Positions 191 to 22,949 of a stretch of 48,492 bases of DNA are shown in pieces. This DNA is from Catajapyx aquilonaris (taxonomy: Eukaryota). The notes beneath the pieces are model-generated. The model was not told where the DNA came from, did no database searches, and saw only the letters and a program-made list of their open reading frames with translations. Location: positions 1 to 48,492 of the forward strand of contig JYFJ02002952.1 of NCBI GenBank assembly GCA_000934665.2. Direction: 5' to 3'. Made by a program: the position numbers and the translations under genes. Within the stretch, counting starts at the first letter, position 1, and each line of letters opens with the position of its first letter.

Positions 191-525
191 TTAGGGCGTC
201 GTTGGAGTCGTCAAGCCGCACTTGGTATGACACACTCGGTACAGATCTGTGAAAAATTTATATTGCATCAAACATTTGGTCTGTCTATAACAATGGATAT
301 GACAATACCTTTGTTGCATTCGGCTGCACAGTCGAGCAGACATGGATTGTTGAATATCTGGTATGTCTTTTCCTTCTTATCATATCCGCAAACAGGACGG
401 TACTCCTTGGTGCAGTTGCAGCCTTTCGGTTGACAACTGCATTTGTCAGGGTTGCAGAATCCATTTGCGACGACGGACACCACCAGAGCAGAGGCCAAGA
501 CAATGGCGATGATTGTATGACGCAT
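191..525 (-). CDS. Secreted Kazal-type protease inhibitor 1 (90 aa, 2 exons, P1=Lys)
   Basis: Exons 525-309 and 246-191, phase-1 GT..AG intron. Signal peptide MRHTIIAIVLASALVVSVVA; Kazal core CNCTKEYRPVCG..FNNPCLLDC; exon 2 DLYRVCHTKC supplies the last Cys; AATAAA (minus) at 32-27. Confidence 0.88.
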
Positions 526-880
526 TGTTGCTTGCTGGAGATGAGCAGAGAAGACGTGCGATGCAGTCGAGAGTCGGTTCTACGAGTGATATTAAACCCG
601 ACCTTTCATATGTGTTTTTCAGAGTGGCAAATTCATCTGGTTGAAATGGTGAAATATGCGCGCAAAAACATCTCATGAATATTGGAAGATAGTGTGGAAA
701 TAATTTTACACGTTTGAACTGCACAGAGTTCACAAGTGCACGACCAAATGTGCACTTTAGTACAACGGTGGTGCATTTGCCAAGTTGTAAGGCACAATTT
801 ATTTGAAATTTCATTTCATTTCAATAGGTGAAACGATTAATACTCGTTTTAAGCACATTTAAAACTCTCTCTTCGATGCA

Positions 881-980
881 TGAGACGTATGACGACGCAT
901 GACGACCCATGACGACGCATGACGACGTATGACGACGCACGACGACGTATGACGACGCACGACGACGCATGAAGACGTAT
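881..980. repeat. 10-bp tandem repeat (TGACGACGCA/TGACGACGTA), about 10 copies
   Basis: Directly visible. Confidence 0.9.
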
Positions 981-1495
981 GAGATGAAAGACCTTTGTAG
1001 ACTTTGAGGATTAAAAAAAAAACTGAATAAACTTATAGTAATTAATGCAGAAATTGAACTAGACATATCCCATTAATACAGTTGATTTGAATACTTTTTA
1101 TATACCAACATGTGCAGCTGTTCTTTTGTTATGAAAAAATAATTATGCAGTTGAATAATGCAGTTCAGTCGCATATTTAAAAAAATATGTATCACCATAT
1201 TTCAGCAATATTTTACAATTATTCTACGCCACAAACTCGGGGAATTTATGCCAACAGCATATAGTTTTTGAAACAATTAGACACAAAAAACCACTTTCAG
1301 TTGTATGCTGAAAGTGTCTTAATGTATCCTCCATGGGTCATTGCGTTTAGTTGTCATAAATTTGGGCTCATATTATTAAACACTCAAAATTGTCATCCAA
1401 TTTTTTATTGCACATAATTATAACATTTTGAACTTCAAATTTTATATCATTCCAATCTAGTCGTAAAGGGCTGGGGTCATCTGATGTCCAGCATC

Positions 1496-1839
1496 TCACT
1501 CATCGTCTGCGTCTCTGATGATGTTGCACTTGGTGTGACACACTTTGTCCAAATCTGTCCAATGAAATTTTTTTTAAAAAATAGCATCAAACTTCAAAAT
1601 GAATCACAACGTCCATACAACTTACCTCTATTACAATGAGCAATTGTGCAATCCAAATAACACTCATTCTGATAGGTGACCCCATCCGACCCACAGACAG
1701 GATAATCATCATCTTTGCAGGAATCACAATGCTTCGCCTGCAGGACACACTCATCCTCAGGACAATACCCAAATTGACACTTCCTGCAGTTTCCTAGGAC
1801 CACCAACAATGCCATCATGATCAGTGTCACACGCAGCAT
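1496..1839 (-). CDS. Secreted Kazal-type protein 2 (90 aa, 2 exons, P1=Asp)
   Basis: Exons 1839-1626 and 1554-1496 (G|GTAAG..ACAG|AT). Signal [43 protein letters not shown]; exon 2 DLDKVCHTKC; TATAAA (minus) at 1899-1894. Confidence 0.9.
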
Positions 1840-1944
1840 CGTAAACCTGCCAAAATATGAGATCCACAAAGGTCATAAATAAAAAACCAGTTGTTTATAC
1901 ACCCCTCCAAGTTTTAATCGCACTAATCACACTACATAGTTTAA

Positions 1945-2354
1945 CTAATCTTCCATCTCATCGCTGTCGGGTCTAGTTATGTTGCAAAGAGAGTTGCACA
2001 CTCTGCTCAGATCTGTCAAAAAGAAATTTGCAATGAGGCTTATATCCAAAAAGTTACGGATGATCTTTACTACGCGACGCAGTGGGAAAGCCACAATAAC
2101 GTCACTTTCGTATAAGTAAAGATCAGTCAGCATATTTGTATACCTTTGTTGCATCTGGCCACCCATTTCAACTCGCATTCGCTGCTGTATATATTCATGT
2201 CTGATCCGCAGACTGGTTTGTTGTTATCAGGACAATTGCTTAATTTACGAGGTGCGCATGTACACAAGCACTTGTTATATTTCCTGCCATCTTTGGAGTT
2301 GGATTGGACCAATGTGATGACCAACAGGAGGACTATCAGGCAACGAAGCATCAT
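1945..2354 (-). CDS. Secreted atypical Kazal-type protein 3 (92 aa, 2 exons, P1=Asp)
   Basis: Exons 2354-2144 and 2012-1945. Signal MMLRCLIVLLLVITLVQS; CPDNNKPVCGSDMNIYSSECELKW; exon 2 DLSRVCNSLC; TATAAAA (minus) at 2538-2532. Confidence 0.87.
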
Positions 2355-2531
2355 GATGGCTCTAATTGTGCAGAAATAAAGTTAAATAATTTTTTAAAAA
2401 AAAATTAAAGTGAATGGAAATACCTCATTGCGCAAGATCTGGCGTAGTGTGTACCAAAGCCAAAAGTACTTACAGTGTTAGGTACGTCTATTCAGCAGGA
2501 CTTGAAGCCAGAATGTGAGCTGGATCTCAAC

Positions 2532-2991
2532 TTTTATACACATCTGTTTGGTTCAGTTACCACGTGATTTGATATGTTAATTAATGTACATGATGTACTG
2601 ATGTTTTTAACAAGAATATGCAGGTGTTTAGTTGAAAAATATTTTTCAGAAATTACTATTTAACAATTCAAATTTGTCAAGGTGTTGACCAGTTCAAAGT
2701 CGAGGACACCACTTTGGCAGCAGTGAACACATGTGAAATGTAGCTATTCAAATGCAAATTAGCAACAATTGATCCCCCCCAGATGTACTGTACGTACACG
2801 ATATTCATATCGCACTTGGCCTTGTGGGATTAACTAATTTAATTTTAAACAGTATGCCCCCCTGTACAACAATCTCATAACGCAAATTCTGCTGCTTCAA
2901 CAACTATTAACAGCCAGAAATAAAAAAAAAAGAAAGGGAGTGAGTCACATTGTTGACATGTACCGATCACGTAGCCAAGTCCCGTATAAAA
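2532..2991. promoter_or_regulatory. Divergent promoter region of Kazal-3 (-) and Kazal-4 (+)
   Basis: TATAAAA on minus at 2538-2532 and on plus at 2985-2991; AP-1-like TGAGTCA at 2941-2947. Confidence 0.55.
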
Positions 2992-3026
2992 GCCGGCTGA
3001 CCTTTCAAAAGTTCCAAGTTGACACC

Positions 3027-3332
3027 ATGGCTCTCTCAATAAGGATCGTCGTGGTCACGCTGGTCATCTGGGCGACCTCATCAGCCACGAAGAGGTGTGA
3101 CAAAAACTGCCATTGTCCACCGAACCAACAATCGGTGTGTGGATCTGACCTGGTCACATATGACAGCCTGTGTCACCTACGATGTGCTCGTGCTTGCAAT
3201 CCTGGTATGGTACTTATTATTAAATTAATTATTAGTAATATTAATTATATTAAATATATAATTGCAGGGTTGTGCCAGCTGACTGATGACGAATGTGGTG
3301 GTGGTGGGTACGACGAACCTTATCCGTACTGA
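3027..3332 (+). CDS. Secreted Kazal-type protein 4 (80 aa, 2 exons, P1=Pro)
   Basis: Exons 3027-3204 and 3268-3332; the 63-nt AT-rich intron is in frame and stop-free, so the ORF track reads through it. Signal MALSIRIVVVTLVIWATSSA; CHCPPNQQSVCGSDLVTYDSLCHLRC; AATAAA at 3359-3364. Confidence 0.88.
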   Translation: MALSIRIVVVTLVIWATSSATKRCDKNCHCPPNQQSVCGSDLVTYDSLCHLRCARACNPGMVLIIKLIISNINYIKYIIAGLCQLTDDECGGGGYDEPYPY

Positions 3333-4281
3333 GCTTGTGGCAACAATGGAATTGACAAAATAAATTGTTTAAAAAATTATTCCACGTTTATTATATTATA
3401 TGTCAGTACAATAATGGGTGTGACCACCTCTACGCTGGCGTTATGGTTCGATGACTTTCGGAGACAGCTGCGACCTCGGGGTGCCAAGGTCTTATCGCAT
3501 TGTTGGTGCAAAAAAAAAAAAGTCGAGGTTACTAGCATCATACAATGAGACTTGTCTGCACTTAGGACTCCTGCAAAATGTCACTTGATATGACGCAGTA
3601 ATTGCAAAAAAAAAAATATCTTAATAGGTGCAGTGGTACCAACAATTGTGCGCCTGAAATGCGCACGAGGTTTTCTCAACAAGTTTCGGTCTAGTAAGTA
3701 CGCAAACCAGTTCAGCTACTTGTTATGCAGTCATGGTTGGTTGTAATGATTGACAGTGAATGGACAACAAATTGTTCAACACTGAGCCAATTATGCCAAT
3801 TATGCAGCGGACTTTCGGGATAATTGGTTGCTGGAAGACAATTATTATGTACGAGTATAGCTCTCAATAAGGAATATTTAAAAATCGCATATAGGTTGCA
3901 TAATAGTATTATGATTAATAGTGAAAAGTCAAGTACTGACCAATTGTTTCAATATTATAATCAATGGAAGAAAAATTATGTTACAATTTTATGCACTATT
4001 TTATATGCAATATATTATAATATTCATCATTCATATACTATACTACATCACGCCTTTTGCCTAATATATAATATAATTATGTTATAAATGAATAAATAAA
4101 ATCTAAATACTGTGTATAATAAATATGATAAATACAAAAATATATATAATGCGATGCAACATACAGTAGATTAAAATAAGATATTTAAATTGCATAAATT
4201 ACAATGAATACAAAATTATTCATATTAGGCTATACAAGAAATCGATATTAAAATTTACTAACATTAATTAATATTAATATG

Positions 4282-4516
4282 CAGTTGAATCCGGATATAA
4301 CAGCCTCGGCTATAGCAGACTTTCGGTTATAACATACTTGAAAGGCCCGTCCTGTCTGTTAAAATAGCCTATGCAGGCCTATGGAAGTATATGGCCGTAT
4401 ATGGCCATATATGCCCTGTGTATTTAGGGAATTATAGGCTATAACATACCTCGGTTATAACAGACTGATTTCCGCGGTCCCTTGAAGTTGAAGTCTGTTA
4501 TATCCGGATTCAACTA
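4282..4516. mobile_element. MITE with about 21-bp TIRs (Tc1/mariner-pogo-like CAGT.. ends)
   Basis: AGTTGAATCCGGATATAACAG (4283-4303) is the exact reverse complement of 4495-4515; internal CTCGGTTATAAC-type subrepeats; no coding capacity. Confidence 0.75.
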
Positions 4517-4899
4517 TATTATAATAGCATACGAATTAAATTAATACAGGGTTATATACCATAAAATAAATAGACACTTTCAACATTTTATATATACCAA
4601 AATATTATTGATAGAACCAAAATACTTACATGGCTTTTTAAAGTCTATAGATGTCTTTAAGTTAAACGCGAATAAATGCATACCAAACGCAATGCGGTAT
4701 AAAACTTTGATATATGTCCACGGCTTCAGTACGACTTTGAGTAGTCATAACTCCAGCAGAAAACAATGTGTAATGTACGTTATTAAACCCCCAATGACTA
4801 ATACGCAACAGCATCACGCTGACTCTTGTCTTTCGCACCATTTAACACCTTAGTATATAAGCCATCAGGTGAGCATCGCCCTCCACCTATAGCATCACC

Positions 4900-6823
4900 A
4901 TGCCTTCGAGAAGCGCCATACTGATGCTGCTGACCCTCACCCTCCTGATGGTGACCATGACCTCATCCGGACGTCCATGTCACCATCACTGCAACTGCAC
5001 CGAAGAATACTTCCCAGTGTGCGGCTCGGACGGAGTGACCTACAGCAACCCATGTCATCTACGCTGTGCCCAACGCTGCAACCCTCGTAAGTTTAAACAC
5101 CAAATTATTATATTATCGAAGTCATTACATAAAAATAATGCGGTTAGCACAGATGACATGCGTTGCGTGTTAAAAAGGGCCCGCTTTCTGATTTATCTGG
5201 ATCGGCGGTGCTCTAACTCCGGTACCGTTTCATGCTCTGCAGCTCGGTCTCTCTGTGCTGCTGTGTGTGGTCAGTGTTGATGGCATCCTCCCATAAACCG
5301 CAATGTAGAAAGTATAACGCCAAAATATTATCATAATAATGGTCGGGACATTGCTCATTGGTAATCTCGCGGGCAATCTGCTCTTCATCCGTATACTATA
5401 CAGTGTCTATACCTAAATTTTGATCAAAATGTGACTTGGCTGCATTATTTTGAATATGGGACTAATGTTCAATGCTATACGTGTCAGTGGAGTTGAAGCT
5501 TTCTTCGTGGCACACATCGCAATATGTCGAGGTCTCTTTCGCTTTATTGTTGTGCCAACTGTATACGGTACGCACTCTGATTCACAGTAATGTGTGGAAA
5601 ATTGCTTCACCTCCAACATCAGTCACAAGAAGTAGTGTAGCATTTTTGCACTTTTACCTATTTTCTCGCCAACTAGGCTGTCACCTTAGCAGCACAATAG
5701 TCGACTGCGAAAGTCACCTCATGATAGGCCTGCGACAGGGAATCTCGCGGACGCTCGTCTCCTATTTTCAAGGTCGCCTCGTTGACTGTATAGCCTTCAA
5801 GTGGGCTTGTGGTGTCAAAATGTCGACAATTTATAAAATCACGAGACTACATTAATTTTTATTTCATAACCATAATTTATTGCTGAAGTGACATGCATGT
5901 CTGACAATTAAAATTACAGTTTTTTAAAAATTACACTGATCTAGGAATTAATATCAATTATGGTACTATATGAAATCATCAATAAACTGCTTTATTAATT
6001 CGATTTATTATTATTATTACAGAAAATAATGCAATATGGTATCAGTTATTATTTCGTAATGTAACCATAATTTATTGTTTAATTTAGATACATTTTAGTA
6101 CTAATAGTTAATATTTTAATTCTTTTCTAAATACTGTATTATTATTTATTAATATTATGTTACATTCTCATTTAATTACGTTCATATTATGATATGAAAA
6201 TTATATTATTGGACACATTAATATAGTGGATTATTAATAATCCACTCTATTAATGTGTCCAATAATGTAATTTTCATAATTTCATAATAATAATAATTAT
6301 TAGTAGCATTCTAAATGGTATCTAATTATTAGATACCATTTAGAATGCTACTAATAATTATTATTTAATTTATTGATACATCATATTACATAACAAATGC
6401 ATTCAATTATTTTATAAATTTATATTATAGGAAACTTTAATTACAGTCCTATTCTGGTCTGTAATTCTTATATAATATTAATTTAATTCAATTTGTTTTA
6501 ATTTCGTTCATCATGTGATGGTGTTGTTGTTGTTAATTACAGTGAATTGTTAATGCGACACAATTTAATTGCAATTACTGCTGTACCGCGCATTGTTATA
6601 ATATGACGAATATTTAATTAATATTATAAGTATAACAAATTAATTCTATTTGAAATTGCTATTACGCGTTATAGAGCGACTTATTGATTCCACAAAATTT
6701 AATTGTAACAATTACTCCAGAACTCGTGTATGACGATTACTTAATTAATATTTAACAAATTTTATCTTTCCAGGTCTGTACAAGGCTCACGATGGCCCCT
6801 GCGCATCCTGGGCCGATGACTAG
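4900..6823 (+). CDS. Secreted Kazal-type protease inhibitor 5 (78 aa, 2 exons, P1=Glu)
   Basis: Exons 4900-5086 and 6774-6823 (C|GTAAGT..TTTCCAG|GT), giving [46 protein letters not shown] with the classic HxGxC end; TATATAA at 4854-4860. Confidence 0.92.
6194..6363. repeat. Two adjacent long AT-rich palindromes in the Kazal-5 intron
   Basis: 6194-6277 (centre GGATTATT|AATAATCC) and 6291-6363 (centre TCTAAT-T-ATTAGA) are each near-perfect inverted repeats. Confidence 0.85.
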
Positions 6824-8021
6824 ACCCTGCGAATCGGAGCACACACGATTTTTTTTTTTTTTTTGAGCATTAAAAAAAAAGCCATGCAAGCTGTACCGTA
6901 ACATAATAAAAAGAGGGGGAGTCTCTCACCATTGTTACGGGCTTCTGCTCCTCGTAACGGGAGTTGTCTGCTTGTTTCCTTTATACATTTTTTTTTCATT
7001 TTTTTTTTTCATATCATATTGTATTCCCTCCTCCACCCCCCTACCACCTTCCCTCACCATGTACTACCTTTCTTAGCGCTAACGAATCGTTAAGATGGAT
7101 AGAAAGTCAGCTCGCAAGAGGTTCCTTGACCCAGTGTTACAGAAACACACTTTAAGCTGTGTGTGCTGCTGCCATGGCTTGGCTATATGGGCACCGCTAC
7201 TTTCTCTCTTCTTGATTCGGAGGAACCTGCGATTTCACTCCCATGTGATATATTCAGGAGCCATACCCACATTTATATGCATCTTTAAAAATATATATAT
7301 AATTATTTTCAACAAAAAAAAGTGCTGCAACAATATGGGCTGACAACAATGCTGCATATTGTTACAAGGCGGACCTATAAAGCCGGCGCGTAATTACAGC
7401 TGTCATGCCGGTCTGTCCGTTTAAAAAACCAAATTTTCGTACATTAATTGCAATTAAAAAAACATTTCAACCAACAATACCGACTGCCTGTGCCAACATG
7501 GCTGCCCGATTCGCCCAGTGTGTGACTATATCTGGATCAATGGCCGTGCTTGTGTATCCTTCCGCCTAGTTCCGCCCAACCTGAGCAGGATTTAGACTAG
7601 AACCGAGTTTAATTGGGATTAACTGGGGTTTGATCAAGGCGGGTTAATCATATTTGGTTGCAGATTGAGACGTGGTTTTGGTTTAAGACGGGGTTGAAGC
7701 GGGTTTTCCCAGGGACTACTTGTCACGTGACCCCGTGTTTACCTGTGCTTGAAAATGGGGACAGTAGCTTTTTGGAGTAACTGCTAGTCGATAGCGGCTA
7801 TTCTCGTAGCGGCTATTAGAAGTTTTATTATTAAATAAATTATTGCAATATATTAAAAGGCACCCTCAAGAAGATTGCATTTGACATTACATGTCTGACG
7901 CACTGTGAGTGTAGTACCATATCCCTCACAGAGATGGCGCACGCTGCTGCACCTAGACTACTGATGACTCACCGCGGACAAACGGCTACCCGCTCTTCGC
8001 ACGGCCAACTACATATAATAT

Positions 8022-17544: not shown

Positions 17545-18644
17545 TTAGTCCAGGTCAATGTCGTCGTACTGGTTATCCAAAGGACTGGTGATGTGCTTGA
17601 GCTTCTTGGCCAGAAATCGTGGGCTGCACAGAATCTCGTACTCCTCAGGGGCCGTTGTGTTGTAGATGTTGTCATCACAGCAACCCAGTGGCCACCTGGA
17701 AAGTGATGGATTAGCCGATTGCAACATATGCTGAAGGTGTCTTACTTGAAGACGTTGCATCCTGTAACGGGGTATTCCATCCTGAAGCATCGAGAACGGA
17801 GTATGTCGAAGTAAAGTGTGCCCACGACGCTGCTTACGAGGTCGGACGAGTTCATCAGGCACTTGTAAAATGCCATATCGCACTCGCAAGCACTCCTAAA
17901 GGGTTAATCCGATTGTGTTAAAAAGTGTGCCAGTTTCATTTTACTTGTGATCTCTCCACAGTCTGACTCACATGGTGTAACTCATAGGATTGCAGATAGT
18001 GTAGTTGCAGCCTCCTGCTGGAATGCTGTCCGGACAGTGGTCGTGAGTGCGGCAGCAGCTGTCCGTTGTGTTGTAGAAGCCCAGCTCATCGTATTTCTTG
18101 GCCATTGATCCATCACCGCACCAGAAGGTACCTGTTGTGCACATACTGTGAGTGACCAGCAGAGAATTTTTATGCAGGGAACGACCATGAACAATGAGGT
18201 GATGTCACTTTATGTGCATGGATAATAGCAGTAATAGTCGGGCAATGAACTGCTGTTAGATAGCAAATGATTTTGCAACATGCACAATGTACGATGAATT
18301 TTTTTTTGAACAAATTCAACGATAATGTGTGTACCTGGGAAGATGAATCTGAGATCCAGGAACTGGATGTTGAACGATAGCAGGTTGTGTTTGATGATTG
18401 CCTTGACATAAAGGCAGATGATCTTGTTGAACGGTTCTACCAGCTTATCCGGGAAGGGTTCCTGGATGTCCTTAACAATCCTGCCAATCAGAGTGTCCAC
18501 CAGTCTCTGGTAGATGAAGTTGCAGCTGTCATCTTCAAGGTCGACCAGGTCTTTCGGGACATCCACAATGCCCTTGGGGACAACGTTGATGGCACCGGCA
18601 AGGGCCAAGCTGGACACGACAATCACCACTACGTTGACCTTCAT
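17545..18644 (-). CDS. Secreted group III (bee/scorpion-type) phospholipase A2, paralog 1 (256 aa, 4 exons)
   Basis: Exons 18644-18335, 18131-17972, 17895-17746, 17695-17545. Signal MKVNVVVIVVSSLALAGA, propeptide, then FIFPGTFWCGDG, CCRTHDHC, CECD, VGTLYFD; TATATAAA (minus) at 18684-18677. Confidence 0.93.
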
Positions 18645-18900
18645 TGTAGGACTGCTGATGTTGCAAATGTGATGCGTTTATATACCTGCCGTTACGCAAT
18701 GGTAATTTTGTAACTAATCTCTATCGGTAGATACAGCCAGTGGGGACAAAGAGGACAGTGAGTGTCGCATGTGAGCGAAGGTTATGCTAGCAGGAAAAAA
18801 AGTGATAAGTCATTACCGCAGATGGAGTGAGACCTTGAATGATACACCAAGTCAGACCTAGATAGCTTTATTTCCCATTGGTTTTATACCGGGTTAATCT

Positions 18901-19543
18901 CTAGCGCCGGAAGAACCTGTCTGCAACGGAAATAAATCAACGTCCACATCATGTTTTGGGATTTTTCGTCCTTACCAGAAGCGGGAATTTCCTGCAGCTG
19001 ATTGTTGGGAGTGTAAGTGAAGCTCTGCAGGTAGTTGCAGATTGCTTGGCAATGGGCAGGCAACATGTTCCCACAGTTGATCAAGCTGCAGGGCCTGGAA
19101 GTTACGTAATGTTACTACGCAGGTATTGGGATAGGTCATGCAATCTGCGGGGTGATATCCTTATCAATCTCTCGCACACTCAGCAAGGGGGTTGCAATAA
19201 ATAATTCAGGCAGCCTGAGGATACAAGCATGGTTACCCATGGGTAGTCGTGCGCTACTCTGCCAAGTCATATGTCTGGAGGGCAAATGATGCTGAATTGT
19301 AATAATCAAACCTGGATCTCTGCGGCTGATAACAGACACTTTTTTGTAGGCAGACCTGGTAATAATTTTGCAATGATGAATCTCTGTTTTCAGGCTCATC
19401 TGGCTTGGTACCGGTTGGTCCCATCTCACCCCTACATTTTTGATTTGTACTGAACTAATGAGTACTTACCATACATTGCCGAGTTTGGGTTCAGGTTCGG
19501 CCATAGCGGTTACGAGCAATACAAAAGCTACGAACACGATCAT
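18901..19543 (-). CDS. Small secreted cysteine-rich prepropeptide of unknown family (70 aa, 3 exons)
   Basis: Exons 19543-19470, 19094-18976, 18920-18901 with GTAAGT/GTAAGG donors, TTCCAG/TTGCAG acceptors and matching phases: MIVFVAFVLLVTAMA-EPEPK-LGNVWPCSLINCGNMLPAHCQAICNYLQSFTYTPNNQLQEIPASDRFFRR*. TATATAAA 19593-19586, Inr TCAGTT 19560-19555, AATAAA 18872-18867. Confidence 0.8.
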
Positions 19544-19666
19544 CGTAGGGTACCAACTGATCCGGTATCACAAAACACCACCCTTTTTATATAACCATTC
19601 TGAATTCCAGACATTTATTACATGTATAATTTTATCGTATGACGCATTTTAAAGGAATTTTGTGTA

Positions 19667-21340
19667 CTAGTTTTCCACAAATGACGGGTTGCAAAACATC
19701 TGGATTATCTTAGTTGCATTGTTGTCGTAGATGTACTCTTTGCAACAGCCAGTTCTGGAATGAGGGGTAATTAATTGGTTGTAAATTGTTGGGACCGAGA
19801 ATGTGTGTAATTACGGTTGTTTCTCCTTGCAGCCGAGAGTCGGATGGGTGTATCTGAAGCACTTCATACACATGAAGTCGAAGCACACGTAGCCGACCAT
19901 AAACGCTGCATCCTCTTTACACCGTTTTAAACAACTGTAGAAACTGTCATCGCATCCACATTCGGACCTGCAGATTACATATTATGCAAACGGTGGATGA
20001 ACACGCAAGAATGTACTCACACAGTGTACGACTCGTTGTTGCAAAACCCTTGCTTGCACTCGCCTACAGCATAGTTCTCCTTGCATTGGTCATGTTCACG
20101 ACAACATGCATCAGTCTCGTTGAAGATACCAAGTTTCGAAGGGTCAGACGTGCTGTTGCCATACCCGCACCAGTACGTGCCTGGAAATATGCCGTCGTTC
20201 TTCTTCATCCAGTCCACGCACGATAGACCGGGGTGATTTGACTCCAACTGGGCGAACTTCTTGCACACCATGTTCGCAGCCATCATTCTAACCGTAGGCG
20301 ACTGTACCTTCTCTTGGAAATCATTGGGTATGCGATATTTGCTGTTTCTGAAAAGGACATTGTCATCCCAGATGGTCACCCCTGTGGTCAGGTTACTCCA
20401 TGGGTCAACTTACCCTATTTGTCAACTTATTTGACGGGCCAAGTTACCCCACTGGTCAACTTTACCCCACAAATCAACGTAGCCCAATTTGTCAACTTAT
20501 CCCACTGGTGAACTTACCCCATGAGTCAAGTTACTGATGGCCAACTTACTCCTTGGACCAACTTACCCTATTTATCAACATTACCTCAAGCAATGGCTAA
20601 CTTATACCACGTGCCAAGATATTCCGCGGTTCGAGTTACCCCACTGGTCAACTTACCCCATGTCCAATTTACCTTGCCAACTTATCCCACAGGACAGGTC
20701 ATCCCACTGGTAAACTTATCCTATTTAGCAACTTACCCCACGGGTCAACTTGCCCCATCGTCCAACTTACCCTATGTCCAATTTACCTTACCAACTTATC
20801 CCACAGGACAAGTTACCCCACTGGTAAACTTACCCCATTGAGAAACTTACCCCATGGCTCAAATTACCCCACGGGTCAACTTACCCCATGTCCAATTTAC
20901 CTTGCCAACTTATCCCACAGGACAGGTCATCCCATTGGTAAACTTATCCCATTTAGCAACTTACCCCATGGCTGAAATTACCCCACGGGTCAACTTGCCC
21001 CATCAGCCAACTTACCCCATGTTCAATTTACCTTGCCAACTTATCCCACATGACAAGTTACCTCAATGGACAACTTATCCCATTGAGCAACTTACCCCAT
21101 GGCTCAAATTACCCCACGGGTCAAACTTGCCCCTTCGGCCAACTTACCCCATGTCCAATTTACCTTCCCAACTTATCCCACAGGGCAAGTTACCCCCAGT
21201 TGTCAGCTTATTTGACGGGCCAAGTTACCCCAATGGTCAAGTTACCCCGGTTGGACTTACAGCATGAAGTCGACACATTCTTCTGGTGTTACTAAGACGA
21301 CGGTCATAAGTACCGTAGTTAGTACGACCAGAAATTGCAT
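19667..21340 (-). CDS. Secreted group III phospholipase A2, paralog 2 (215 aa, 4 exons)
   Basis: Exons 21340-21261, 20347-20021, 19967-19815, 19754-19667. Signal [48 protein letters not shown] in place of GxxYFD; AATAAA at 19619-19614. Confidence 0.92.
20385..21250. repeat. Degenerate satellite of (GT)CAACTTACCCCA units filling PLA2-2 intron 1
   Basis: Dozens of CAACTTACCC/AAGTTACCCC/AACTTATCCC motifs at roughly 15-18-bp spacing, with higher-order duplication (e.g. 20645-20745 vs 20874-20970). Confidence 0.85.
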
Positions 21341-21522: not shown

Positions 21523-22949
21523 TTATTTAAGCTGATTGGTGCTTGTGATGTTTTGCGTGAAGGATGGGTTGCAAAACAGCTGGATTGTCTCGGGGGCATT
21601 GTTGTCGTAATTGTAGTCTGTGCAACAGCCGGTTCTGAAATTAACCTTCTTGTTAGTTAACCGCTTGTTAAAATATGTTAATGTTAATATTACGGATGTT
21701 CTTCCTTGCATCCTAGTGTCGGATGGGTGTATCTAAAGCACTGTATGCCAATAATGTCGAAGTACAGGTACCCCACAAGCGTCGTTGCGTCGTCATTGGC
21801 TTGCTTCAGACAACCGTAGAACTTTTCGTCGCAACTGCATTCGGATCTGTCACAACAGTGTTGGCATTGTAGTCAACAATGTTTCTATAGAACTGGTAGA
21901 CACATGACCTTGACGCAGTACCTTTGAACACACATGTTGCTGTAATTAACTCTTAACAAATACTCACATAGTGAATGGCTCGTTGTTGCAAAACCCCTGC
22001 TTGCACTCGCCTGACATAAAGTACTCCTGACATTGGTCGTGTTCGCGACAACAATAGTCAGTCTCACTGAAGACACCAAGTTGGGTTGCGTCGGACGAAG
22101 AGTTACCGGTACCGCACCAGTACGTGCCTGGTAACATTGCGTCGTCCTTCTTCATTGAGTCCACGAAGTACAGACCGGGGTGCCTTGACTCCAGGAAGTT
22201 GAACTCGTCACACACCAGGTTCAGAGCCAAGGTTCTGAGAAAGGAGATGGTCACCTTCTGGAGGAAGATCCTGGATATGAGTGTGTCGTTTTGTCTGGAA
22301 AGGAAGGTGGATGAACCCTGCTGGTGGTCAAGTTAACCCCATGGCCAACAGTGAGCAGCAAATGGCACACACAAAAAAGTCGGGTCCTCGGAAAGGTTTG
22401 TGTTGGTGTATCTGTATGGCTTTTGGGTGACTGCACCAGTACTGTCCGTCTCATGGCCCTGCCAGGCACGGTCTGTCCTGCCGGATAATTTTACTTAAAT
22501 GGGTTCTGTTCACGCTCGTCTTCAGGTCAACGAATGTTAATGTGTCGCCCTGCCAGGCACGGTCTGTCCTGTCCAATAATTTTACTTGGGTTGCGTTCAC
22601 GCTCGTCTTCAGGACAACGAATGTTATTGTGGCCCTGCCAGGCACGGTCTGTCCTGTCCAATAATTTTACTTTGGTTGTGTTTACGCTCGTCTTCAGGTC
22701 AACGAACGTATTGTGGCCCTGCCAGGCACGGTCTGTCGCTTTGTCCTACCCGATAATTTTAATTAAGTGGGATGTGTTCACGCTCGTCTTCAGGTCAACG
22801 AACATTATTGTGGCTTTGCCATGCACAATTGCCAATTTTGCCTAGATTTCCGGTACTTACAGCAGGAATGTCTTGCACTCGTCGAGATTTCCCGTGACGG
22901 TTACGACGAATGTGAGTACGATCCAAAATTTGTGAATACTGACACACAT
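21523..22949 (-). CDS. Secreted group III phospholipase A2, paralog 3 (226 aa, 4 exons)
   Basis: Exons 22949-22861, 22294-21968, 21846-21694, 21634-21523; exons 2 and 3 have the same lengths as in paralog 2 (327 and 153 nt). [30 protein letters not shown]. Confidence 0.93.
22454..22820. repeat. About 85-95-bp tandem minisatellite (4+ copies) in PLA2-3 intron 1
   Basis: Unit GCCCTGCCAGGCACGGTCTGTCCTG..TAATTTTACT..TTCACGCTCGTCTTCAGGTCAACGAA starting near 22457, 22547, 22632 and 22716. Confidence 0.9.

What the first reader, a model, noticed from the sequence alone, without database searches (positions are those of the whole stretch)
18901..19593. Hidden 3-exon gene for a toxin-like prepropeptide between PLA2-1 and PLA2-2
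Seen: a complete transcription unit (TATATAAA, TCAGTT initiator, three phase-matched exons, AATAAA) that the ORF track catches only in part. Product: 15-aa signal, EPEPK spacer, core LGNVWPCSLINCGNMLPAHCQAIC (C-x4-C-x7-C-x3-C), and a tail ending DRFFRR. Its TATA box lies only about 20 bp downstream of the PLA2-2 polyA signal. Known: X-Pro dipeptide propeptides are trimmed by dipeptidyl peptidase IV in hymenopteran venom precursors such as melittin; apamin has C-x-C-x7-C-x3-C; terminal basic residues are removed by carboxypeptidases. Inference: an undescribed two-disulfide bioactive peptide co-secreted with the PLA2s. I recognise no family; the apamin likeness is spacing only.
Basis: partly seen in the sequence, partly recalled or inferred. 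Interest (0 to 1): 0.85.

Follow-up and report, generated by a model that had tools for sequence, protein, structure and literature searches.

The report
Orphan secreted two-disulfide peptide gene
A tiny three-exon gene for a secreted, cysteine-stapled peptide very probably does sit between two phospholipase genes of this arthropod, but it has no detectable relatives, no spliced transcript was seen, and nothing specific marks it as a venom toxin.

Summary
The DNA model is right. On the minus strand, TATA (19593), initiator, three in-phase exons and AATAAA give a 70-residue precursor. The promoter-plus-signal layout is rare in shuffled DNA (4 in 150 windows, against 2 here), exon 2 scores as coding in the predicted frame, and its acceptor ranks first of 37. 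Splicing is not shown: the one public run (X1) has spliced PLA2 contigs, but over this gene only a low-depth contig that crosses the exon-2 acceptor unspliced. The gene is single-copy, with no relative in any database searched; this scan has not noted it on other DNA. The toxin reading is weak. The host is an arthropod without an insect odorant-receptor repertoire, so not a bee, wasp or ant. X-Pro propeptides also occur in fly immune peptides, and group III PLA2s in non-venomous insects. The core lacks apamin's spacing, arginines and amidation. Best reading: a lineage-restricted secreted effector, a neutral disulfide-stapled helix that acts by binding a partner, in a cluster of TATA-driven secretory genes. 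A weaker acceptor 9 bases on would give the alpha-hairpin cysteine pattern. Modest interest.

The parts
19586..19593 (-). TATA box (TATATAAA), overlapping the expected 3' end region of PLA2-2
   Evidence: initiator A lies 33-35 bases downstream; null counts
19555..19560 (-). Initiator TCAGTT
19470..19543 (-). Exon 1 coding part: 15-residue signal-like peptide ending AMA, EP-EP dipeptide spacer, start of mature peptide; phase-2 donor GTAAGT
   Evidence: hydropathy rule only; SignalP not available
19095..19469 (-). Intron 1, 375 bases; its 5' part (19388-19465) is a decayed dispersed repeat also found at L002 and L003
   Evidence: part of it is covered unspliced by an X1 contig
18976..19094 (-). 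Exon 2: four-cysteine core and polar tail; phase-1 donor GTAAGG. In-frame alternative start at 19085
   Evidence: coding score, GC3 0.69; acceptor ranks 1 of 37; helix over Cys3-Cys4
18921..18975 (-). Intron 2, 55 bases, like the 50-76 base introns of the neighbouring PLA2 genes
18901..18920 (-). Exon 3 coding part: RFFRR and stop
18867..18872 (-). Polyadenylation signal AATAAA, 28 bases after the stop
17545..18684 (-). Neighbour PLA2-1 (group III secreted PLA2) with its own TATA box at 18684
   Evidence: Pfam PF05826; two introns seen spliced in X1
19614..21340 (-). Neighbour PLA2-2, four exons, stop at 19667, AATAAA 19619-19614
   Evidence: (loose end matches exon 1)

Best explanation
A real, single-copy, lineage-restricted gene for a small secreted effector peptide that is not a venom toxin. 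Shown at DNA level: promoter, three in-phase exons, polyA signal. Inferred: it is transcribed from its TATA-initiator promoter in a secretory tissue (gut, gland or fat body), like the Kazal and PLA2 genes of this contig. The signal peptide is cut after AMA, a DPP4-type peptidase removes EP-EP, a carboxypeptidase removes the terminal RR, and two disulfides staple the N-terminal loop onto a short helix that carries Cys3 and Cys4. The resulting peptide of about 49 residues is neutral, so it most likely acts by binding a protein or surface partner in host defence or exocrine secretion, not by lysing membranes or blocking a potassium channel the way apamin does.
For: Layout far above shuffled nulls. 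Exon 2 coding-like in the predicted frame, GC3 0.69 against 0.68 in neighbouring coding exons. Acceptor 19094 ranks 1 of 37 and 18920 joint 4th under a matrix from 13 neighbouring acceptors. Two of the 3 G|GTRAG donors in 18690-19620 are the predicted ones. The 4 TATA+signal starts in the window are this gene, PLA2-1 and two Kazal-type genes. Single-sequence AlphaFold2 puts a helix over residues 12-22 of the exon-2 peptide, with Cys3 and Cys4 in it (pLDDT 79.8). Charge -0.2 after trimming, no charged residue in the core. DPP4-family domains on 5 contigs. XA/XP motifs in fly immune peptides; non-venom group III sPLA2s.
Against: No spliced contig for either junction; the one contig over the gene (19006-19311, depth 3.9) runs unspliced through the exon-2 acceptor. 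Exon 2's coding score (7.8 bits) is below the 10th percentile (9.5) of 49 training windows. No orthologue or paralogue, so no evidence of selection. The promoter has only 73 bases between it and the PLA2-2 stop codon and overlaps that gene's 3' processing signals. The role (defence or exocrine) rests on neighbourhood and analogy; tissue and target are untested.
Confidence: 0.5

Rival explanations
1. A hormone-like or paracrine signalling peptide: the secreted, trimmed, disulfide-closed product acts on a receptor of the animal itself.
For: Signal peptide, terminal basic residues, single copy, neutral charge. The stretch C-x4-C-G-N-M looks a little like CNMamide.
Against: No internal dibasic site and no Gly-basic amidation site. 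CNMamide precursors are 127-179 residues with KR before and an amidation site after the peptide. Neuropeptides usually have relatives across arthropods (general knowledge); none was found.
Confidence: 0.15
2. A silent, decaying or never-functional unit: the elements are a remnant, and the RNA over it is run-on transcription past the PLA2-2 polyA site.
For: The only RNA-like evidence is unspliced, at a depth similar to the PLA2-2 contigs (3.9 against 2.5 and 8.4; the tool warns that contig depth cannot rank genes). A repeat fragment begins a few bases after the donor. The GT-rich stretch after the TATA box also fits a downstream element of the PLA2-2 polyA site (inference).
Against: Every element is intact and in phase, and the joint layout is rare in nulls. 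PLA2-1 exon 1 is uncovered in the same run although that gene is spliced there, so holes prove nothing.
Confidence: 0.12
3. One reading: a venom or salivary toxin precursor, processed like melittin and secreted with the PLA2s.
For: EP-EP spacer; C-x7-C-x3-C shared with apamin; three exons as in the apamin gene; predicted helix over the last two cysteines; PLA2 neighbours.
Against: Host not a hymenopteran; apamin family is bee-restricted and defined by other flanking genes; no Bee_toxin match over cut-off in the genome; no RXCQ motif, arginines or amidation; single copy where toxin genes often multiply (general knowledge); no similar gene beside the PLA2 genes of five other contigs.
Confidence: 0.1
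4. A dedicated cofactor or inhibitor of the neighbouring PLA2s, binding the enzyme or its lipid interface.
For: Tight packing between PLA2-2 and PLA2-1 on the same strand and the same promoter type as PLA2-1.
Against: No sequence relation to PLA2 prodomains; no copy beside other PLA2 loci; weak amphipathicity of the helix (moment 0.27); no sign of joint expression in X1.
Confidence: 0.08
5. Exons 1 and 2 are alternative 5' exons of PLA2-1: the exon-2 donor splices to the PLA2-1 catalytic exon and gives an enzyme with another prodomain.
For: Both junctions are phase 1, so the splice is in frame (read by hand); X1 does not cover the 5' part of PLA2-1.
Against: Phase agreement is a 1 in 3 chance; a good acceptor, a stop and AATAAA lie 55-110 bases on, and PLA2-1 has its own promoter and signal exon; no similarity to PLA2 prodomains.
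Confidence: 0.05

Closest known systems
Apamin / MCD peptide / tertiapin (Anthophilin1; Pfam PF17454 Bee_toxin)
   Same: Small secreted precursor from a three-exon gene (PMC10591384, passages); four cysteines with the C-x7-C-x3-C end and a helix over the last two (PMC9523135, passages).
   Different: First gap is 4 residues, not 1; no RXCQ motif or arginines; no amidation; a 26-residue tail after the last Cys; other flanking genes; host not a bee; no profile match.
DPP4-trimmed precursors: melittin-type 'aculeatoxins' and fly immune peptides (Diptericin, Attacin C)
   Same: X-Pro dipeptides directly after the signal peptide (PMC10591384; bioRxiv 10.1101/2022.12.23.521774; passages).
   Different: Only two dipeptides; the product is neutral and disulfide-closed, not a cationic lytic helix or a glycine-rich peptide. 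PMC10591384 itself warns that shared DPP4 processing can make unrelated propeptides look alike.
Cystine-stabilised alpha/alpha hairpins (scorpion kappa-KTx, conotoxins vil14a and flf14, plant alpha-hairpinins)
   Same: Two disulfides on a helix with C-x3-C. If the acceptor at 19085 is used, the core becomes C-x3-C-x7-C-x3-C, the family's motif (PMC7191063, PMC11722136, passages).
   Different: With the better acceptor the first gap is 4 and the model has one helix only. The buckwheat hairpinin 2LQX appears only at Z 2.1, rmsd 3.0, 30 aligned, tied with unrelated rows.
CNMamide neuropeptide
   Same: C-x4-C followed closely by Asn-Met.
   Different: An extra Gly before Asn-Met, two more cysteines, no KR before and no amidation site after, precursor half the length (PMC7179676, passages).

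Membership tests
Anthophilin1 (apamin family) | Cysteine scaffold C1, C3, C11, C15 (C-x1-C-x7-C-x3-C) | tested here: not met
   Cys at 27, 32, 40, 44; apamin numbering
Anthophilin1 (apamin family) | Match to Pfam PF17454 | tested here: not met
   No match of exon 2 at E<=1; 16 genome matches at E<=10, none over cut-off, none at this locus. Only exon 2, not the spliced precursor, was scanned
Anthophilin1 (apamin family) | Bee host and position between MOXD1 homologue 2 and TBC1D30 | tested here: not met
   Flanked by PLA2 genes and SPPL3; 1 weak 7tm_6 match among 15 candidates; definition
Anthophilin1 (apamin family) | Three-exon gene | tested here: met
   Predicted from DNA; not confirmed by RNA
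Apamin-like KCa2 blockers | RXCQ motif in the helix, C-terminal amidation | tested here: not met
   No Lys or Arg in the core, no Gly-basic site; features
Apamin-like cystine-stapled helix (works like) | C-x3-C on a helix, joined by two disulfides to an N-terminal segment | tested here: inconclusive
   Helix over Cys3 and Cys4 in a single-sequence model; disulfide pairing not reported; fold searches gave nothing clear
CS-alpha/alpha hairpins (kappa-KTx, alpha-hairpinins) | C-x3-C-xn-C-x3-C | tested here: inconclusive
   Met only with acceptor 19085, which is outside the top 10 of 37 by the local matrix; 0 of 13 neighbouring acceptors have another AG 3-14 bases upstream; a cruder count put it level with or above 19094
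CS-alpha/alpha hairpins (kappa-KTx, alpha-hairpinins) | Two antiparallel helices, C1-C4 and C2-C3 pairing | not testable with these tools
   The alternatively spliced product was not folded; the exon-2 model has one helix
Venom component | Made in a venom gland, present in venom, toxic | not testable with these tools
   No tissue data; X1 has no library record
DPP4-processed precursors | X-Pro or X-Ala dipeptides after the signal peptide | tested here: met
   EP-EP after residue 15; DPP4-family genes present; cleavage itself not shown
CNMamide | KR-flanked, amidated C-x4-C-N-M at the precursor's C-terminus | tested here: not met
Group III PLA2 prodomain fragment | Similarity to the N-terminal exons of the neighbouring PLA2s | tested here: not met
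   Exon 2 against PLA2-1 exon 1 and PLA2-2 exon 2: 45% and 80% of shuffles score as high; DNA score 68 lies within the 56-69 of unrelated signal exons against PLA2-1

The most novel reading that the evidence does not exclude
The founding member of a new disulfide-stapled peptide family in a non-hymenopteran arthropod that has reached the bee-venom design on its own: a DPP4-trimmed, three-exon peptide gene packed among secreted PLA2 genes and released with them as toxin or enzyme partner. A tandem acceptor 9 bases apart would switch its scaffold between C-x4-C and the alpha-hairpin C-x3-C pattern.
Probability: 0.1. Interest if true: 0.65.

Novelty: new member of a known kind. Interest (0 to 1): 0.3.

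Why it matters
If expressed, it is an unannotated secreted peptide with a cysteine spacing that matched no family searched here, so a new small scaffold worth a bioactivity screen. It also shows how closely a gene can be packed onto a neighbour's 3' end. But lineage-restricted secreted cysteine peptides are common in invertebrate genomes, and without a transcript, a relative or an activity this one does not yet open a question. It would matter more if it proved to be a PLA2 partner or a toxin in a lineage not known to be venomous.

Tried and rejected
Expression: no RNA holder listed; one run of unrecorded kind, X1. Exons 1 and 3 have no cover in X1, but neither has PLA2-1 exon 1, so this is no evidence. 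Homologues of the exon-2 peptide: none among 22-70 residue proteins (longer proteins not searched with that tool). The 13 phmmer hits in 1.84 billion representatives are sums over repeats: best single stretch 9.1 bits; of the 8 of 13 scanned, 6 are bacterial Ig/cadherin repeat proteins, 1 a TPR kinase, 1 has only a weak match under its cut-off. ESM Atlas: top score 0.91 to RHS clusters with 110 of 256 features, low recognition value. PDB sequences: one hit at E 0.26. Pfam: only Hikeshi-like_C at E 0.11. Foldseek: none at E<=0.001; VIA best Z 2.3; a missing match does not show a new fold. Metagenome contigs: 308 pattern matches, 0 confirmed; 3 PLA2-related loci, none with the peptide. Phages: no match. 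Paralogues: only self by protein and DNA; 4 other AEPEPK-coding matches, none behind a signal-peptide start as read by eye, against 2 in the control. A genome-wide scan for the cysteine spacing was not done; in 151 kb held locally it occurs once, here. Origin by partial PLA2 duplication: rejected. Host lineage by SPPL3: arthropod, not resolved further. PLA2-1 word search found nothing. This scan's notes: nothing near, by words or by sequence (few words, weak). No complex prediction was sent: the PLA2 domains are split over exons.

Full report
Observation. The exons join in phase to 70 residues with cysteines at 27, 32, 40 and 44. The first 15 residues are hydrophobic and end in AMA; I tested this with a hydropathy rule, not SignalP. 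The PLA2-2 AATAAA is 20 bases above the TATA box.

Is it chance? TATA, initiator and a signal-like first exon occur together twice in the window, here and at PLA2-1. The same rule gave 0 hits in 40 Markov-3 windows and 4 in 150 Markov-4 windows; with a donor added, 1 here against 1 in 150. I set these rules after seeing the finding, so the contrast is somewhat flattered. Under a codon model from 12 neighbouring exons, exon 2 scores best in the predicted frame (7.8 bits; the other five frames -0.4 to -17.2), and 0.46% of 4596 overlapping stop-free non-coding windows score as high. Against this, 7.8 is under the 10th percentile (9.5) of 49 training windows. With a matrix from 13 neighbouring acceptors, 19094 ranks first of 37 AG sites and 18920 joint fourth. 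A cruder pyrimidine count put 18920 first and left 19094 out of the eight rows shown. Two of the three G|GTRAG donors between 18690 and 19620 are the predicted ones.

RNA. One run held part of the region, X1, of unrecorded kind. Six of its 85,611 contigs were laid. It behaves like RNA of this species: two PLA2-1 introns are skipped at depth 326, and a PLA2-2 contig runs on into that gene's first exon (checked). Over the small gene there is one contig, 19006-19311 at depth 3.9, and it crosses the exon-2 acceptor unspliced. No predicted junction appears. This fits pre-mRNA or run-on from PLA2-2, whose contigs have depth 2.5 and 8.4 (inference). It does not refute the gene: contigs drop variants, and PLA2-1 exon 1 is also uncovered.

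Relatives. The gene is single-copy by protein and DNA search; the two other DNA matches are a dispersed repeat in intron 1. Exon 2 found no relative in Pfam, the protein collection, 1.84 billion representatives, the ESM Atlas, PDB sequences, folds or metagenome contigs. These searches used the 39-residue exon-2 peptide, or frames of 40 and 75 residues that contain it, not the spliced precursor, so distant relatives can be missed. It is not a piece of a PLA2 prodomain. The PLA2 domain matches six contigs; in the stretches fetched around the other five there is no similar gene.

Host and neighbourhood. SPPL3 places the host among arthropods without a close relative. The insect odorant-receptor family gives one weak match among 15 candidates; bees, wasps and ants have large repertoires (recalled), so the host is not one of them. 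The contig holds several Kazal-type genes and three PLA2 genes with the catalytic His-Asp pair. The four TATA-plus-signal starts are this gene, PLA2-1 and two Kazal-type genes. This reads as a cluster of secretory effector genes, with no sign that it is a venom locus.

The toxin arguments. The EP-EP spacer fits DPP4-type trimming, and such enzymes are in the genome. But XA/XP motifs are also described in Drosophila Diptericins and Attacin C (bioRxiv 10.1101/2022.12.23.521774, passages), and PMC10591384 (passages) notes that shared DPP4 processing can explain likeness among propeptides. Group III sPLA2s have venomous and non-venomous subgroups, with roles in immunity and lipid digestion (PMC10328117, passages). 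Apamin has Cys1-Cys11 and Cys3-Cys15, an amidated end and an RXCQ motif whose arginines are key (PMC9523135, passages). This peptide has a first gap of four, no charged residue in its core, no amidation site and a charge near zero after trimming. The apamin family is bee-restricted and flanked by MOXD1 and TBC1D30 genes; its Pfam model has no match over cut-off in this genome. What remains is a likeness of build: a three-exon gene, and a predicted helix that carries the last two cysteines (pLDDT 79.8, pTM 0.44, single sequence).

A second acceptor. An in-frame CAG lies 9 bases downstream, at 19085. Exon 1 ends in TG, so this splice makes the split codon a cysteine and the core C-x3-C-x7-C-x3-C in a 67-residue precursor. 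That is the motif of kappa-KTx, conotoxin vil14a and plant alpha-hairpinins (PMC7191063 and PMC11722136, passages). The splice signals speak against it: outside the top 10 of 37, and none of 13 neighbouring acceptors has an AG just upstream. I give it about 15% as the main form. The exon-3 tail is also open: if intron 2 were kept, the frame would run to 94 residues with a fifth cysteine and stop just above the same AATAAA; that extension scores as neutral, not coding.

How it most likely works. Shown: the DNA anatomy. Inferred: expression from the TATA-initiator promoter in a secretory tissue; removal of the signal peptide, of EP-EP (leaving the lysine) and of the terminal RR; two disulfides that staple the N-terminal loop to the helix; a neutral peptide of about 5.6 kDa that binds a partner outside the cell in defence or exocrine secretion. 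I put this at 0.5, a hormone-like role at 0.15, a silent unit at 0.12, a toxin at 0.10, a PLA2 partner at 0.08 and alternative PLA2-1 exons at 0.05.

Novelty. The sequence matched no family in the searches named. The kind is familiar: a lineage-restricted secreted cysteine peptide with an X-Pro spacer. Earlier notes of this scan list other orphan secreted-peptide genes in the same genome (unchecked), and none like this sequence. Of the eight papers cited or consulted I saw passages only (PMC10591384, bioRxiv 10.1101/2022.12.23.521774, PMC10328117, PMC9523135, PMC5577568, PMC7179676, PMC11722136, PMC7191063), no supplements; supplements on arthropod peptide catalogues could bear on novelty. Interest 0.3.

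Noticed in passing
window 19667-19753 (-) and 21523-21630 (-): PLA2-2 and PLA2-3 each have a fourth exon with a three-cysteine C-terminal extension like that of PLA2-1; a PLA2-3-like contig in X1 skips the matching intron.
   Followed up: partly
window 21261-21340 (-) and 22861-22949 (-): Signal-peptide first exons of PLA2-2 and PLA2-3 lie beyond introns filled with tandem repeats (20385-21196, period about 17; 22454-22826, period 85). The PLA2-2 splice is supported by an X1 loose end.
   Followed up: partly
window 18335-18644 (-): PLA2-1 has a long first exon (about 103 codons) with a prodomain of no Pfam match and an intron inside the PG|TxWCG motif, unlike PLA2-2 and -3.
   Followed up: no
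window 250-6830: A cluster of about five small secreted Kazal-type genes on both strands, read by eye; two have TATA boxes at 2985 and 4854. Not scanned against Pfam.
   Followed up: no
window 19388-19465; L002 1501-1581 and 1162-1240; L003 1501-1541 and 1776-1866: A short dispersed repeat, present twice in each of L002 and L003, starts 4 bases inside intron 1. Possibly the end of a non-autonomous DNA element.
   Followed up: partly
L025 (G000:C453): The only 7tm_6 match in the genome search is a weak one in a long frame that looks like a gustatory-type receptor.
   Followed up: no
window 23350-24900 (-): A chitin-binding-like (peritrophin-type) exon next to PLA2-3, with a duplicated downstream segment around 24638-24895 (family label recalled, not scanned).
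   Followed up: no
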